DNA from: a virus
Taxonomy: Duplodnaviria > Heunggongvirae > Uroviricota > Caudoviricetes
Direction: 5' to 3' (one strand)
DNA length: 64,000 bases
IMG/VR virus record: IMGVR_UViG_3300024341_000001
Shown: positions 39,031-42,413 of the stretch, piece after piece
Layout: the number at the start of each line of letters is the position of its first letter
Position numbering within the stretch: the stretch's first letter is position 1
The notes under the pieces: generated by a model
The model's database searches: none
Told to the model about the DNA's origin: nothing
The model's input: only the letters and a program-made list of their open reading frames with translations
Translations under genes and position numbers: made by a program

Positions 39031-40692
39031 TTAACCTCTAATAAAGTCACTTATAATCTTCGGTGCAGATGCATCGAATCCTACGACGTTCATGGTGTAA
39101 GCAGAATCGTCTGCGATGCTTCCGTTTGTAGCCGATGTGGCAACACTGATTAATCGTGCAGGAATACCCATCTTTTGCTGATAAGATTTCAGTGCCTGGA
39201 TTGGATGTACGTGCCCAGCCCAAGTTTCATTATCCGTATAGACCACAAAAGCATCGATAGGTATTTTGTGCTGTTCGGCGTATATCATCGGTAACGAACA
39301 GTCAGTACCACCATAGTTTTGGTTGGCCACTTTAGCCATTACTGTGGCTAGATCTTGTTTTGGAGAGATACCGAGATCACAAAACGATGTCGAGAACCCC
39401 TTTATAACATAATCCTTTTCAGTGCGCATGGTTACCATCGACATAGCTGCGGTAACTTGGCATGGGCGTAATTGTTCAGAACCAATTACTGACCCCATAC
39501 TCATTGAGCCTGAAATGTCCAATCCTATTAAAATACGTTTTCCCGTCGGTTCAACGGCACCAAAAGATAAATAAAAGCAATCTTCTAATGCATCCACTAA
39601 CTTTCGAACTGGGCTCCATGTTGATGTCCCACGGAAACTTTTTCCTCCACCGTATGTTGCCTGTGCTATTAAAACTTGTATTGGATGGACACGACCTTTC
39701 TTCAATACTTCAGGATTAGTGAATTGCTCCACTATATACTTTGTATTGTCACATCCTACTTCACCAAGAACTCCGGCATTTGTTAGCGTTGGTAACTGCC
39801 TGATCAATGCAGTAATACCTAAATTAGGTATAATCACATCATAAACCTGTTTTGTGCGCTTTTCCGTAGGAACTAATTCCAACGGAAGTTCAAATTCTTG
39901 TACAAGCTCGACAATACGTTTCTTATTGTCGGTAGCTTTCACTTCTTCGTAAGCGCCGATAAGTGGTAACAATTCTTTTAACTTGGACATATCATGCTCA
40001 TAAGCATCCATGTTAAAATACTTTGAATCCTTATCTTTTTGCTGTTTGATACGGTCGACAGCCCATTTAAATGCCAAAGTCTGTGCTTCGGTCTCAGGGT
40101 GTGGATGCGCCAAACGCAACACATCGCGATGCGACCAGCCGTCCCTAGATTGATATTTTGCCAGCTGTACTGCTAGTGACTCAATCTTGCGATTGGTATA
40201 CCAGTTACCGATGGCAGTACGTAATCCACGACTCCAGCCGCGCATTTTGTCAATGTATTCAACAAAGTGGAATAAATAAGTTCCGGTGCGAGCTACTTTT
40301 TGTAATGATTGCAAAGCATATTGACGCGTATCAATATCATCCGCCGCAGCACACATCGCCAAAACAAATAAGGCTGGATCGTTCTTTGCGGCTCTTCCAG
40401 AATCGGAAATTTGCACTGTAACATCTACGACACGCTTGCCGTCTTCTTTAATACATGCGGCAACGTTCTTGGCGTTATCTTGCGTCATCTTTAGCGGGCC
40501 AATGTAATAATTACCGCTTTCGCTACCAAGTATTAAAAATCTGTCTAGTCTTTGCCACTTATCCAGTTCAAACACGTACCCACCGGCGGCGTTTTGTACC
40601 ATAGTCTTGCCGGGAATTGGTTGTGATTGTGGTACGGGTGTATTTGGATTTAATTGTCTCGCAGTTTGCGAGTATGGTGTTTTCTTGTTCAT
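39031..40692 (-). CDS. rsr: Ro60 (Rsr) ortholog: TROVE domain plus a C-terminal vWA
   Basis: YVFELDKWQRLDRFLILGSESGNYYI matches the Ro60 TROVE signature ([20 protein letters not shown]). C-terminal MIDAS motif LDISGSMSMG. The start is revised to MNKKTPY, which has an AAGGGAG RBS. Confidence 0.8.
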   Translation of the reverse strand: MNKKTPYSQTARQLNPNTPVPQSQPIPGKTMVQNAAGGYVFELDKWQRLDRFLILGSESGNYYIGPLKMTQDNAKNVAACIKEDGKRVVDVTVQISDSGRAAKNDPALFVLAMCAAADDIDTRQYALQSLQKVARTGTYLFHFVEYIDKMRGWSRGLRTAIGNWYTNRKIESLAVQLAKYQSRDGWSHRDVLRLAHPHPETEAQTLAFKWAVDRIKQQKDKDSKYFNMDAYEHDMSKLKELLPLIGAYEEVKATDNKKRIVELVQEFELPLELVPTEKRTKQVYDVIIPNLGITALIRQLPTLTNAGVLGEVGCDNTKYIVEQFTNPEVLKKGRVHPIQVLIAQATYGGGKSFRGTSTWSPVRKLVDALEDCFYLSFGAVEPTGKRILIGLDISGSMSMGSVIGSEQLRPCQVTAAMSMVTMRTEKDYVIKGFSTSFCDLGISPKQDLATVMAKVANQNYGGTDCSLPMIYAEQHKIPIDAFVVYTDNETWAGHVHPIQALKSYQQKMGIPARLISVATSATNGSIADDSAYTMNVVGFDASAPKIISDFIRG

Positions 40693-41300
40693 GTTCGACT
40701 CCCTTTCTATTAGGATGTAAAAAAATGAGGCAATGTTTAAAGTCGGATGCTTTTGACAAGCAGCATTATTAGATTGCAGCTCCAATAACAAGGCATCGGT
40801 TTCTACGCTAACCGGCGACATTATTTATGTTATAAGTAACACGCACTCGCTACTCACATATTCGCGAATGCTATGGTATTACCATTGATTTTATTCAAGT
40901 ATGATAACCAACTTTGTTCGGCCTCAAGAAAAACTAATGCTATTCTATTTTTGGCGGAATAGCAACGCATACTACTGTGTATTCCCAGTAGCTAAGAATG
41001 GCACCTCCACCAGTGAAGCATCGGTCGCTTTGCGGCCTAGCGCGGAACGTCACTACCGACTTCAGCAGTCGCAAGTAAGCAACCACTGTCACGTACAACT
41101 ATTTTAATATCTTAAAAACTCTAATTTCTTTAAAGTATCACTTACTTGCATTTAAGCAAAACAAGGATATTATATTCTTTTCTAAAAATTACCGGATAAA
41201 TATTGAGCTCGGAGATTGCCTTTTACATTCCTAGGCTAGTTGCGGACTCTACCGCGTTCTTTTTTCTTAGATTGATAACCAAGCCGATTCGACCCGATAG

Positions 41301-41371
41301 CCCAAATGGTAGGATTCGAACCTACATTTTCCGCGATACCAATGTTATGGTTACGCCTTATGTGCATTTGG
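41301..41371 (-). ncRNA. tRNA-like element: perfect 7-bp acceptor-like stem and canonical T-arm, but a non-canonical D/anticodon core
   Basis: Sense sequence: CCAAATG...GTAGG-TTCGAAT-CCTAC-CATTTGG-G. The 39-nt core cannot be folded into standard D and anticodon arms. Confidence 0.45.
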
Positions 41372-42078
41372 ATTAATTGGTACAAATTGTGTAAAGACTA
41401 CAGTATCCTCTAAGGAATAAGCATGTGTTGTCATATCTTCTTTAAAAGGCTGTAATGTAATGAAGTCCACATTATGCGATAAGCATGCGGCGGATCTTTC
41501 AAATATATCTTGTTTGGAAAGTGTGTTCATAACGACTCCTTATAAGATCAACAATGAATCGACAGGGCTACTGATTACCTATAAGCCTTGGAAATACCTA
41601 CGTTATTCAGGCACAGACCATATATTTGGCCTAATATATTATGGTTCCACTTGCGTGGAATTCTGGGAGGAATCTACCTCCAATCGGATACAGTCCTCAG
41701 GATTGTCTATAAGCGATTTGTCCGATTCTTACGAGACTCAGAGTTGTACGACTCTGGCCGTTTTACCTTTACGCATGTATACTGTACTGCCAGCAGCTGA
41801 TCTTCGCAGCCACTACGTATTATGGGCAGACTACCCATTATTCTACCACGGTTCAGTGTTGATTGTTTTAAATTAAAGGGATAATGTTTAACCACCGGTT
41901 GCCTAACCTGTCGATATTATCGACTTGAGCACAGGACTTTGTGCTCGGGTTCTTATGCGAAAGATAACGATGATTGATTCGACCCCTAAACTTGGAAGCT
42001 GAATAAATGATTGAAGACCGTGTTTTTTGTCTTTGTAAGGTAAGATAAGATAACGATCTTGCGTCCGACTCAGCTTAG

Positions 42079-42151
42079 TGGACCTACGGAGAATTGAACT
42101 CCGAGTCTTTAGCTTGCAAAGCTACTGCGTTCCCAATTACGCTATAGGCCC
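42079..42151 (-). tRNA. tRNA-Ala(UGC)
   Basis: Full cloverleaf by hand. Acceptor GGGCCTA/TAGGTCC with G3:U70 (the Ala identity pair). D-stem GCGT/ACGC with a GG in the loop. Anticodon loop TTTGCAA (U33, A37). 5-nt variable loop. T-arm CGGAG-TTCAATT-CTCCG. A73 discriminator. No encoded CCA. Confidence 0.8.
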
Positions 42152-42413
42152 AAAAATAATAGTGAGATAATAAGAGATTCAGCGGTTTTATCTTAACGGG
42201 ATAACGCTGTATCAACGACCCCACTTACAAATATACATAATTTCTTATGTAAAGTCAAGTGATTTCTGGACCGCACAATCTTACAGTTTTTGTATTTTCG
42301 ATAGGGCAAAAACTTTCGGGGGAGTCGTATCCCTAGTAGATGTGCGGGGTTAAACTTGAGACTCTCGTAATGTATATTAAACTACGTACAGTGCAATTCT
42401 TATACCATAAAAT

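What the first reader, a model, noticed from the sequence alone, without database searches (positions are those of the whole stretch)
39031..42413. Ro60 ortholog flanked by a 1.7-kb non-coding locus with tRNA-Ala and a tRNA-like module: candidate Y-RNA (YrlA-like) locus
In bacteria (Deinococcus, Salmonella, Mycobacterium) rsr is adjacent to Y RNA genes. The YrlA class contains a tRNA-mimicking module (acceptor-like stem plus T-arm) inserted into a Ro-binding helix. Here a long ORF-free region begins immediately upstream of rsr, after its start is corrected to 40692. It contains one canonical tRNA and one element with a perfect acceptor stem and T-arm but a non-tRNA core. This is what a YrlA-type module would look like. 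Several other stable hairpins lie between them, for example 40938-40965 and 41925-41947.
Basis: partly seen in the sequence, partly recalled or inferred. Interest (0 to 1): 0.8.

Follow-up and report, generated by a model that had tools for sequence, protein, structure and literature searches.

The report
Phage Ro60 gene with Y-RNA array

Summary
39031-40692(-) encodes a full-length Ro60 (TROVE + vWA). tRNA-Ala(UGC) lies at 42078-42151(-). A tRNA-like element with a 7-bp acceptor stem and a perfect T-arm, but no D or anticodon arm, lies at 41301-41371(-).

The upstream region is not ORF-free. A conserved 59-aa gene (41351-41530) sits inside it.

The main content is five Y-RNA-like units on the Ro60 strand:
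- a: 42225-42161
- b: 42076-41996
- c: 41988-41876
- d: 41299-41190
- e: 40926-40726

Each unit has a terminal stem, a bulged-C helix (5' GNCG / 3' U-R-Y), a second stem and the sequence GUUAUC. The same signature is found next to Ro60 genes in 89 unrelated loci: 161 units on the Ro60 strand against 4 on the other. Covariance models built only from distant loci recover units a, b and d.

The tRNA-like element lies directly 5' of unit d. It is not nested in a Ro-binding helix, so the YrlA topology is not met.

Most likely this is a polycistronic Y RNA/tRNA operon that starts at a conserved promoter (42258-42230). tRNA-processing enzymes probably cut it. It lies in an RNA-repair island (Rnl1, RlaP, PNKP).

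Phage Ro60 with upstream Y RNAs is already published, so this is a new member of a known kind.

The parts
39031..40692 (-). Ro60 (Rsr) ortholog, 553 aa, with TROVE ring and vWA domain carrying a DxSxS MIDAS motif
   Evidence: Pfam TROVE and vWA_Ro60. PDB 2NVO at E 1e-119 and 1YVP at 5e-106. 74% identical to the L001 protein; the alignment starts at this Met, and D392-I-S-G-S396 is invariant.
40726..40926 (-). Y-like unit e (201 nt). Stem 1 is UGAG/CUCA, the core is GC[C]GA paired with U-GC, stem 2 is AAAGUUGG/CCGACUUU, followed by UUAUC and a large apical domain. A U7 tract follows (40725-40719), 33 nt before the Ro60 start codon.
   Evidence: Descriptor hit. Orthologs lie immediately upstream of Ro60 in all 7 relatives. 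RNAalifold on an unfitted MAFFT alignment recovers both stems, with 14 of 24 pairs showing compensatory changes.
40939..41028 (-). Conserved non-Y element 'f': GGUGGAGGUGC, then hairpin CUACUG-GGAAUACA-CAGUAG, then AUGCG, then hairpin GCUAUUC-CGCCAAAAAUA-GAAUAGC. Function unknown.
   Evidence: blastn conservation with L091, L092 and L093. Loops are conserved and stems covary in L001, L091, L092, L093 and L096.
41190..41299 (-). Y-like unit d (110 nt). Stem 1 is UAUCGG/CCGGUA, the core is GU[C]GA/U-AU, stem 2 is GGCUUGG/CCGAGCU, followed by UUAUC. Apical hairpins are GCGG-UAGAGU-CCGC and GCCU...AGGC.
   Evidence: Descriptor hit. Independent YrlA-type model R3 scores it at 29.7 bits, E 6.6e-6, the best hit in the window. 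Orthologs exist in L091, L092 and L093, and the RNAalifold consensus has compensatory pairs.
41301..41371 (-). tRNA-like element: 7-bp acceptor stem (CCAAAUG/CAUUUGG), T-arm GUAGG-UUCGAAU-CCUAC, one irregular arm in place of the D and anticodon arms, discriminator G, no CCA. It ends 1-2 nt before unit d.
   Evidence: Rfam tRNA model 23.4 bits, below the gathering score of 29, with acceptor and T-arm only. Not called by ARAGORN. Acceptor 7/7 and core fold. T-arms occupy the same position in L092 and L093; L096 has an identical T-arm in an ARAGORN 'tRNA-Arg'.
41351..41530 (-). Small protein gene (59 aa) inside the RNA array, preceded by AGGAG
   Evidence: Homologs at the equivalent position in L001, L091, L092 and L095, with consensus ..IL...I..RA..C...LDFxTxxPL. 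No Pfam or PHROG family.
41531..41875 (-). Variable spacer, structured-looking but not conserved
   Evidence: Fold z-score -2.18. No blastn counterpart in 7 relatives apart from one 22-nt match. The 138-aa ORF on the + strand has no PHROG hit.
41876..41988 (-). Y-like unit c (113 nt). Stem 1 is AGGGGU/AUCCCU, the core is GU[C]GA, stem 2 is AAUCAUCG/CGGUGGUU, followed by UUAUC. The apical part is a three-hairpin junction.
   Evidence: Fold z-score -3.5. Descriptor hit. The 5' and 3' ends are 91-96% identical to L001 and L092 while the middle differs. RNAalifold consensus. Orthologs in L001, L092, L095 and L096 carry a T-arm-like hairpin that the window copy lacks.
41996..42076 (-). Y-like unit b (81 nt hairpin with a pyrimidine-rich loop). 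It starts 2-3 nt after the tRNA-Ala discriminator.
   Evidence: R1 scores it at 32.2 bits. Independent model R2 scores it at 25 bits, E 2e-4. Descriptor hit.
42078..42151 (-). tRNA-Ala(UGC) with a G3:U70 pair and no encoded CCA
   Evidence: ARAGORN. Rfam tRNA model 65.1 bits. Conserved in L001, L092, L093, L095 and L096.
42161..42225 (-). Y-like unit a (65 nt hairpin, apical loop UUAUCCCGUUAAGAUAAAAC). It ends 9 nt before tRNA-Ala.
   Evidence: R1 scores it at 48 bits. Independent model R2 scores it at 36.2 bits, E 1.8e-7, the top hit of the window. Orthologs in 5 relatives.
42230..42258 (-). Sigma-70-like promoter TTGACT-17-TATATT. Unit a begins 5 nt after the -10 hexamer.
   Evidence: Best promoter-like site in the region, 10 of 12 matches. 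The same TTGAC(T/A)-N17-TATATT lies 5-10 nt before the first Y unit in L001, L091, L092, L093 and L095.

Best explanation
The 1.7 kb upstream of the phage Ro60 gene is a polycistronic small-RNA operon on the Ro60 strand. It holds five Y-RNA-like units (a-e), a working tRNA-Ala(UGC), a tRNA-like element and one small protein gene.

Each Y unit is a stem formed by its own 5' and 3' ends. The stem contains the Ro60-binding signature: a helix with a bulged C (5' G-N-C-G-A, 3' U-R-Y). This is the bacterial counterpart of the metazoan GGUCCGA helix. A second stem, the conserved YUAY/GUUAUC sequence and a unit-specific apical domain follow.

Inferred mechanism:
1. Transcription starts at the conserved promoter at 42258-42230, essentially at the first base of unit a.
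2. RNase P and a 3' tRNA-processing enzyme cut at tRNA-Ala. If the tRNA-like element is active, they cut there too, since its acceptor/T-arm minihelix is the part these enzymes recognise. This releases unit a (9-nt trailer), unit b (2-3-nt leader) and unit d (1-2-nt leader).
3. The Y RNAs bind the phage Ro60 ring through the bulged helix. Their differing apical domains tether or gate Ro60 towards partners such as host PNPase.
4. Unit e ends in a U-tract 33 nt before the Ro60 start codon. It is either the last Y RNA of the array or part of the Ro60 mRNA leader.

The locus sits beside RNA ligase, RlaP and PNKP genes, so it probably serves RNA quality control or repair during infection.

Shown here: the sequence and structure signature, its covariation, its exclusive association with Ro60 genes, and synteny.
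Inferred only: transcription, processing, Ro60 binding and partners.
For: - Repeated signature. Eight units from the window and L001 align over 59 columns. 93.9% of cells are paired, 12 of 17 pairs change on both sides, and slid controls reach at most 45%.
- Specific to this locus. The descriptor gives 5 hits in 42225-40726(-), against 0.9 per whole shuffled window. Model R1 finds nothing else in the 64 kb better than E = 1.3.
- Tied to Ro60. In 89 Ro60 loci oriented with Ro60 on the + strand, the descriptor finds 161 units on the + strand (145 within 2 kb of the gene) and 4 on the - strand. The regex alone gives 160 upstream and 30 downstream hits on the + strand, against 5 and 3 on the - strand.
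- Independent models. R2 was built from 37 units of distant loci. It ranks units a (E 1.8e-7) and b (E 2e-4) first in the window and hits two sites upstream of the Catera Ro60 gene. R3 was built from 16 YrlA-type units. It hits unit d at E 6.6e-6.
- Orthologs with compensatory changes. Seven syntenic phages carry 5-7 units each. RNAalifold on unfitted alignments recovers the stems for units e, d and c.
- Motif match to published features: GNCGAA near the 5' end, a conserved YUAY, a long 5'/3' stem, same strand and within 4 kb of Ro60 (PMC4201824).
- Published precedents. In D. radiodurans Yrn2, tRNA-Asp and Yrn1 form one precursor, and M. smegmatis YrlA and YrlB come from one precursor upstream of rsr. 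Thermus phage phiLo Ro60 binds two upstream Yrl RNAs and host PNPase (PMC12135203).
- Promoter conserved at the head of the array in 6 genomes.
- tRNA next to Y units elsewhere. 23 of the 161 units have a tRNA or tRNA-like 3' end within 45 nt upstream.
- RNA-repair neighbours: PNKP, RlaP and Rnl1.
Against: - There is no expression, processing or binding data. Everything about function is inferred.
- Selection bias. The units used for R2 and for the pair counts were chosen by a descriptor that demands pairing. Those pair statistics are therefore partly circular; the strand and position bias is not.
- The published motif GNCGAAN0-1G is met only in part. Units c, d and e have GNCGAA but no following G. 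Unit a has GUCGUU and unit b GUCGGA.
- No window unit carries the T and D arms said to occur in at least one Y RNA per species.
- The processing role of the tRNA-like element is weak. L091 has unit d without any T-arm, and L092 has a T-arm with a poor acceptor stem. RNase P cleavage at 41371 would cut off the last 7 codons of the conserved small ORF.
- Units c and e escape the covariance models because of their long apical inserts. R3 scores unit e only weakly (10.4 bits).
Confidence: 0.8

Rival explanations
1. One reading: the tRNA-like element at 41301-41371 is the tRNA-mimic module of a YrlA-class Y RNA, nested inside a Ro-binding helix.
For: It has a perfect acceptor stem and T-arm with a non-tRNA core. 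It lies next to a Ro-binding-type helix, unit d. YrlA RNAs do contain T-arms and acceptor-like stems.
Against: - The topology is wrong. YrlA is circularly permuted (T arm, closed acceptor hairpin, D arm, all inside the Ro helix). This element has normal tRNA order and lies entirely 5' of unit d's helix.
- No GNCG...GUUAYC strand lies upstream to enclose it.
- It has no D arm.
- The YrlA model R3 aligns unit d without it.
- A genuine YrlA in a relative (L094 90-227, 35.6 bits) shows what the nested form looks like in this clade.
Confidence: 0.05
2. The Y units are real, but the tRNA-like element is only a decaying pseudo-tRNA. It would be a relic of the tRNA genes that populate these loci, with no role in processing or in Ro60 biology.
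For: - L096 has an ARAGORN-called tRNA-Arg(UCG) between units c and e, with a T-arm identical to the window's.
- Retention varies among relatives: a full acceptor stem in the window, a 39-nt minihelix in L093, a weak acceptor in L092, and nothing in L091, which still has unit d.
- The core has no conserved alternative structure.
- The element overlaps the end of a conserved ORF.
Against: - The acceptor stem (7/7) and T-arm are intact while the rest has diverged. This is the pattern expected if only the RNase P/Z recognition half is under selection.
- Other tRNA-like elements in the clade (L001 3447-3525 and L091 3003-3081) keep their shape through compensatory changes and also sit directly before a Y unit.
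- 23 Y units in unrelated loci follow a tRNA 3' end within 45 nt.
Confidence: 0.35
3. The units, at least unit e and perhaps all five, are cis-acting leader, attenuator or terminator structures of the Ro60 operon rather than stable trans-acting Y RNAs.
For: - Unit e ends in a U7 tract 33 nt before the Ro60 start codon, with no room for a promoter in between. All 8 clade members have a U-rich tract after unit e.
- Units a and d are also followed by U-runs.
- Many units in other loci lie 30-200 nt upstream of Ro60.
Against: - The same signature occurs downstream of Ro60 in 19-30 cases.
- It matches RNAs shown experimentally to be stable and Ro60-bound in other species.
- Five different apical domains are conserved as separate classes, which is unnecessary for terminators.
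- The terminator scan finds none on the - strand of this region.
Confidence: 0.1

Closest known systems
Mycobacterium smegmatis YrlA/YrlB and the Y RNAs of Bxz1-like mycobacteriophages (Chen et al. 2014, PMC4201824)
   Same: - Several Y RNAs lie upstream of rsr/Ro60 on the same strand and are made from one precursor.
- They share the GNCGAA motif, the YUAY sequence and a long 5'/3' stem.
- My model R2 hits both the window's units a and b and two sites upstream of the Catera Ro60 gene.
- Catera units share the ...GCCGAAGG...CGGUUAUC... layout.
   Different: - Those loci include a YrlA with nested T, acceptor-like and D arms (Catera 3708-3859). No window unit has them.
- The window has five units rather than two or three.
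- The Ro60 proteins are only 39% identical.
Deinococcus radiodurans Yrn2-tRNA(Asp)-Yrn1 polycistron upstream of rsr (PMC4201824)
   Same: Y RNAs and a genuine tRNA are co-transcribed upstream of Ro60, and several small RNAs occupy one locus. This parallels the window's order: unit a, tRNA-Ala, unit b.
   Different: The Deinococcus locus is bacterial and UV-induced. The window's is in a phage, carries an extra tRNA-like element and a small ORF inside the array, and its co-transcription is only inferred.
Thermus phage phiLo Ro60 with Yrl1/Yrl2 (PMC12135203, 2025)
   Same: A phage-encoded Ro60 has Y-RNA-like genes just upstream. They were identified by the CGAA motif and a stem-bulge-stem fold, and were shown to bind the phage Ro60 and host PNPase.
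   Different: phiLo has two units and no tRNA or tRNA-like element is reported. The window has five units and no experimental data. I could not compare sequences, because phiLo was not among the matches in the phage collection.
Salmonella rsr-yrlBA-rtcBA RNA repair operon (PMC7790460, PMC4201824)
   Same: Ro60 and Y RNAs are genetically linked to RNA repair enzymes. The window has an Rnl1-family ligase, RlaP and PNKP within 6 kb on the same strand.
   Different: The repair enzymes differ: RtcB/RtcA in Salmonella, against T4-type Rnl1/PNKP here. In Salmonella the Y RNAs lie downstream of rsr and are under RtcR/sigma-54 control.

Membership tests
Ro60/Rsr protein (TROVE family) | TROVE HEAT-repeat ring followed by a vWA domain with a MIDAS motif, with full-length similarity to solved Ro60 structures | tested here: met
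   Pfam TROVE 5e-38 and vWA_Ro60 1.8e-54. PDB 2NVO at 1e-119 and 1YVP at 5e-106, both over the full length. DISGS at residues 392-396.
Bacterial/phage Y RNA (generic Ro60 partner) | Encoded within about 4 kb of Ro60 on the same strand | tested here: met
   All five units lie 34-1533 nt upstream of the Ro60 start codon on the - strand.
Bacterial/phage Y RNA (generic Ro60 partner) | Long stem formed by the 5' and 3' ends, containing the Ro60-binding site (conserved 5' strand, bulged helix) | tested here: met
   The two-stem module with a bulged C fits all units. 93.9% of cells are paired and 12 of 17 pairs covary. RNAalifold on unfitted alignments supports it for units e, d and c.
Bacterial/phage Y RNA (generic Ro60 partner) | GNCGAAN0-1G motif near the 5' end (Chen et al. 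2014) | tested here: inconclusive
   GNCG is present in all five units. GNCGAA is present in c, d and e (GUCGAAUC, GUCGAAUCG, GCCGAACA) but without the following G at N0-1. Unit a has GUCGUUG and unit b GUCGGACG.
Bacterial/phage Y RNA (generic Ro60 partner) | Conserved YUAY after the second stem | tested here: met
   UUAU, within GUUAUC, occurs in all five units. The same holds across 89 Ro60 loci.
Bacterial/phage Y RNA (generic Ro60 partner) | Physically bound by Ro60 and dependent on it for stability | not testable with these tools
   Needs RIP, EMSA or Northern blots.
YrlA subclass (tRNA-mimicking Y RNA) | T stem-loop with the T-loop consensus, nested between the two strands of the Ro-binding stem | tested here: not met
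   No T-arm lies in the apical part of any window unit; the T-arm scan finds only tRNA-Ala and the tRNA-like element, both outside units. R3 aligns unit d's GCGG-UAGAGU-CCGC at the T position, but that hairpin lacks UUCRA.
YrlA subclass (tRNA-mimicking Y RNA) | D stem-loop (UAGCUCAGU.GGUAGAGC type) nested 3' of a closed acceptor-like hairpin | tested here: not met
   In the best R3 match, unit d, the D arm is deleted. No D motif occurs in any unit. For comparison, 22 of 161 units in other loci have both T and D arms.
YrlA subclass (tRNA-mimicking Y RNA) | Significant match to a YrlA covariance model | tested here: inconclusive
R3 was built here from 16 YrlA-type units. It scores unit d at 29.7 bits (E 6.6e-6), but through the Ro-binding module and hairpin spacing, not through the tRNA-like features.
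tRNA (for the element at 41301-41371) | Cloverleaf with D arm, anticodon arm with a 7-nt loop, T arm and acceptor stem, scoring above the Rfam gathering score | tested here: not met
   23.4 bits against a gathering score of 29; the D and anticodon arms are skipped. Not called by ARAGORN. The core folds into one irregular arm with a 6-nt loop.

The most novel reading that the evidence does not exclude
Two readings that the evidence does not exclude:
1. The tRNA-like minihelices in this phage clade are kept on purpose as RNase P/Z 'punctuation' that sets the ends of the Y RNAs. This would explain why only the acceptor stem and T-arm survive.
2. Unit e is a Ro60-binding Y module built into the leader of the Ro60 mRNA. 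It ends in a U-tract 33 nt before the start codon, so Ro60 binding could tune read-through or translation of its own gene (autoregulation).

Together with the adjacent Rnl1/RlaP/PNKP genes, this would make the locus a self-regulating, tRNA-punctuated RNA-repair and quality-control module of a jumbo phage.
Probability: 0.25. Interest if true: 0.6.

Novelty: new member of a known kind. Interest (0 to 1): 0.4.

Why it matters
Ro60 and Y RNAs are best known from human autoimmunity, and their roles in bacteria and phages are still being worked out.

This locus adds a well-delimited example from a low-GC jumbo phage of about 215 kb. It has five distinct Y-RNA classes, a conserved promoter, an embedded tRNA-Ala and tRNA-like elements, next to RNA-repair genes. 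It offers concrete, testable RNA boundaries and binding-site mutations.

The by-product may be more useful than the locus itself. A simple signature (terminal stem, GNCG, 7-14 nt, GUUAYC, 3' U-R-Y) finds Ro60-linked RNAs almost only on the Ro60 strand in 89 diverse loci, with arrays of up to 7 units. It could seed a Y-RNA covariance model, which Rfam lacks.

None of this changes the current picture of Ro60 biology.

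Tried and rejected
- blastn of the locus against 50,697 phage records gave no match. Relatives had to be found through the protein.
- The Rfam gathering scan and an E<=10 scan found only tRNA hits and chance matches (Plastid-ycf2, U2), with no Y_RNA hit. The positive control showed that Rfam cannot detect phage or bacterial Y RNAs, so this negative result is uninformative.
- Exact-pattern scans of viral contigs with the conserved 22-mer of unit c and the apical loop of unit a returned only the L001 contig.
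- The first metagenome scan returned only Ro60 relatives of 49% identity or less. They were useful for the family-wide test but not for fine covariation.
- Models R1 and R2 cannot see units with 70-160-nt apical inserts. Units c, d and e were therefore supported by the descriptor, by orthologs and by RNAalifold instead.
- A purely structural descriptor without GUUAYC was unspecific, giving 41 hits in the window, and was dropped.
- Two encoding-contig look-ups returned no DNA.
- I considered that the 138-aa ORF on the + strand (41460-41876), or other small ORFs, explain the spacer. They have no PHROG hits and no conservation.
- I considered that the tRNA-like element plus unit d form a rearranged YrlA. 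I rejected this as a membership claim because the T and D arms are not nested.
- I considered that the units are generic phage repeats or terminators. I rejected this because of the Ro60-strand-specific distribution and because the terminator scan found nothing on the - strand.

Full report
**1. What is at the coordinates**

The ORF 39031-40821(-) matches Pfam TROVE and the Ro60 vWA domain. It aligns over its full length with D. radiodurans Rsr (2NVO, E 1e-119) and with Xenopus and human Ro60.

Its true start is the ATG at 40692:
- The closest homologs are 550-564 aa long and align from that Met.
- AAAGGGAG lies 7 nt upstream.
- The 129-nt extension up to 40821 overlaps a conserved RNA element.

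ARAGORN and Rfam find one tRNA in the 64-kb window, tRNA-Ala(UGC) at 42078-42151(-), scoring 65 bits.

At 41301-41371(-) the Rfam tRNA model scores 23.4 bits, below its gathering score of 29. Only the acceptor stem and T-arm align. The acceptor stem is 7/7 paired and the T-arm is GUAGG-UUCGAAU-CCUAC. The 39-nt core folds into one irregular arm. ARAGORN does not call it.

The region is not ORF-free. A 59-aa ORF at 41351-41530(-), preceded by AGGAG, has homologs at the same place in five related phages.

**2. The main feature: five Y-RNA-like units**

Reading the minus strand, a motif GGGUCG...GUUAUC recurs. Each copy is the 5' side of a hairpin unit with the same plan:
- a terminal stem;
- then G:U, U:A, a bulged C and G:U (5' G-N-C-G, 3' U-R-Y);
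- an internal loop;
- a second stem of 5-10 bp;
- GUUAUC opening a variable apical part.

The units are:

| Unit | Coordinates (-) |
|---|---|
| a | 42225-42161 |
| b | 42076-41996 |
| c | 41988-41876 |
| d | 41299-41190 |
| e | 40926-40726 |

Eight trimmed units from the window and its closest relative L001 align cleanly. 93.9% of cells are paired and 12 of 17 pairs change on both sides, while slid controls reach at most 45%.

The motif GNCG-N7-14-GTTAYC occurs 5 times in 1.3 kb here and once in the rest of the window. Shuffles give 3.4 per whole window on both strands. The full descriptor gives 5 hits in the locus, against 0.9 per whole shuffled window. A covariance model of the units finds nothing else in the window better than E = 1.3.

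**3. Are they Y RNAs?**

Rfam cannot answer this. It finds only tRNAs around the Ro60 gene of mycobacteriophage Catera, a group reported to carry YrlA. I therefore tested the association directly.

I collected 89 Ro60 loci from metagenomes, viral contigs and Catera, all oriented with Ro60 on the + strand. The descriptor finds 161 units on the + strand, 145 of them within 2 kb of the gene, and 4 on the - strand. There are 0-7 units per locus. The regex alone gives 160 upstream and 30 downstream hits on the + strand, against 5 and 3 on the - strand.

The Catera upstream region shows the same layout, for example ...GGAGGCCGAAGGCUCGUCGGUUAUC... with the 3' strand ...CCAUGUCUCC.

The features match Chen et al. 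2014: GNCGAA near the 5' end (their counterpart of the metazoan GGUCCGA), a conserved YUAY, a long 5'/3' stem, and location on the same strand within 4 kb of Ro60.

Two models built without any sequence from the window's clade recover the window's units:
- R2, from 37 short units, ranks unit a (36.2 bits, E 1.8e-7) and unit b (25 bits, E 2e-4) first in the window. It also hits two Catera sites.
- R3, from 16 units with nested T, acceptor-like and D arms (the YrlA type, including Catera 3708-3859), ranks unit d first (29.7 bits, E 6.6e-6).

One caveat applies. The training units were picked by a descriptor that requires pairing, so the pair statistics are partly circular. The strand and position bias, and the hits in the window, are not.

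**4. Relatives**

A protein search found Ro60 relatives of 55-74% identity. It also showed that the window's own protein sits on a 215-kb contig, so this is a jumbo phage.

Seven syntenic loci were available (L001, L091-L096). Their gene order is: PNKP, a roughly 200-aa gene, a long 'non-coding' stretch, Ro60, a DUF5906 primase, and ClpB. Each carries 5-7 units that fall into orthologous classes:
- Unit e lies immediately upstream of Ro60 in all eight genomes. RNAalifold on an unfitted MAFFT alignment recovers both of its stems, with 14 of 24 pairs compensatory. A U-rich tract follows it in every genome.
- The unit d and unit c classes give the same two-stem consensus plus class-specific apical hairpins.
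- A promoter of the form TTGAC(T/A)-N17-TATATT lies 5-10 nt before the first unit in six genomes. In the window it is at 42258-42230, the best promoter-like site in the region.

**5. The tRNA-like element**

In YrlA the tRNA mimic is circularly permuted and nested: T arm, closed acceptor hairpin and D arm, all between the two strands of the Ro helix.

The window's element is different. It has ordinary tRNA order and lies entirely 5' of unit d, ending 1-2 nt before it. No enclosing strand lies upstream. R3 aligns unit d without it. None of the five window units has a T or D arm.

A relative does have a proper YrlA (L094 90-227, 35.6 bits). The unit c orthologs in L001, L092, L095 and L096 keep a T-arm-like hairpin that the window's unit c has lost. 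The YrlA membership test therefore fails for the window, although the locus clearly belongs to the wider Y-RNA family.

What the element does is less certain. Points in favour of a processing role:
- Only the RNase P/Z recognition half is intact.
- tRNA-Ala sits in the same way between unit a (9 nt before it) and unit b (2-3 nt after it).
- Other tRNA-like elements in the clade keep their shape through compensatory changes and also precede a Y unit.
- 23 units in unrelated loci follow a tRNA 3' end within 45 nt.
- D. radiodurans makes Yrn2, tRNA-Asp and Yrn1 as one precursor.

Points in favour of a decaying relic:
- L096 has an ARAGORN 'tRNA-Arg' with an identical T-arm at the equivalent place.
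- L091 keeps unit d with no T-arm, and L092 has a poor acceptor stem.
- Cleavage at 41371 would truncate the small ORF.

**6. Mechanism**

The best-supported reading has four steps:
1. One transcript starts at about 42224 and runs through the array into Ro60.
2. tRNA-processing enzymes release tRNA-Ala and define the neighbouring Y-RNA ends.
3. The Y RNAs bind the phage Ro60 through the bulged helix.
4. Their five different, class-conserved apical domains recruit or gate different partners, as shown for Yrn1 with PNPase and for phiLo Yrl with PNPase.

Only the sequence and structure signature, its conservation and its linkage to Ro60 are shown here. Transcription, processing and binding are inferred.

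The neighbours are an Rnl1-family RNA ligase (46303-47376), RlaP (44582-45298) and PNKP (43734-44594), all on the same strand. This recalls the Salmonella rsr-yrlBA-rtcBA operon and suggests a role in RNA repair or quality control during infection.

**7. Novelty and score**

Y RNAs next to Ro60 were reported in more than 250 bacteria and 22 phages in 2014. A phage Ro60 binding two upstream Y-like RNAs was characterised structurally in 2025. This locus is a new member of that kind.

It is richer than the published phage cases: five classes, an embedded tRNA and tRNA-like element, a small ORF, and a Y module in the Ro60 leader. None of these is unprecedented in principle. I score interest at 0.4.

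The most novel reading still open is tRNA-like punctuation plus an autoregulatory unit e. I give it about 0.25 probability.

Noticed in passing
window 43734-47376 (-): RNA-repair gene set on the same strand, just upstream of the Y-RNA array: T4 Rnl1-family RNA ligase (46303-47376), RlaP nucleotidyltransferase (44582-45298) and PNKP kinase/phosphatase (43734-44594). A PP2C phosphatase lies at 49548-50255. PNKP and RlaP are syntenic in the related phages.
   Followed up: partly
window 40939-41028 (-); L001 ~5461-5585, L091 ~4620-4700, L092 ~4650-4715, L093 ~4382-4470: A conserved non-Y RNA element lies between units d and e: GGUGGAGGUGC, a hairpin with loop GGAAUACA, AUGCG, and a hairpin with the conserved loop CGCCAAAAAUA. 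The stems covary between genomes (CUACUG/CAGUAG vs CCUCAG/CUGAGG; GCUAUUC/GAAUAGC vs CCGUCA/UGACGG). There is no Rfam match and the function is unknown.
   Followed up: partly
window 41531-41875 (-): A 345-nt spacer between unit c and the small ORF folds somewhat better than shuffles (z = -2.2) but has no counterpart in seven relatives. A 138-aa ORF on the opposite strand (41460-41876) has no PHROG hit. This may be a lineage-specific insertion.
   Followed up: partly
L001 3447-3525 and L091 3003-3081: A 79-nt tRNA-like element is conserved between two relatives with compensatory changes in the acceptor stem and one arm. Its 'anticodon' arm has a 4-nt loop, and it is followed by ACCA or ACUA and then directly by a b-type Y unit. 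The window has no copy.
   Followed up: partly
L018, L038, L045, L054 and other loci, upstream of Ro60: Arrays of up to 6-7 Y-like units occur upstream of Ro60 in unrelated metagenomic loci. 40 of the 161 units carry a nested T-arm and 22 carry both T and D arms. In L010 a tmRNA gene (5104-5515) is followed directly by a Y unit at 5519. The unit at L005 65-192 appears to enclose an unpermuted tRNA-like sequence.
   Followed up: partly
L092 3427-3548, L096 2996-3124, L001 4491-4612, L095 2499-2624: Unit c orthologs share a T-arm-like hairpin and a conserved GGAAGAG motif. A possible (G)CUC/GAG(C) pairing would cross the GUCCG/CGGAC helix, which would make a pseudoknot. This was not tested. The window's unit c has replaced this domain with three unrelated hairpins.
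   Followed up: no
window 36656 (-) and equivalent sites in L001, L091-L096: The same promoter type (TTGACT-N17-gTATATT) that heads the Y-RNA array also precedes the next operon, upstream of the DUF5906 primase, in every relative. It is probably a phage promoter class read by the host sigma-70-type polymerase.
   Followed up: no
window 40693-40821 (-): Public gene calls for this protein (P0001, 596 aa) use the upstream ATG at 40821. That 43-codon extension overlaps the conserved unit e and is absent from all homologs, so the database protein is probably mis-started.
   Followed up: yes
window 24830-30910 (+): A 2026-aa ORF lies on the strand opposite to most genes. It was not examined.
   Followed up: no
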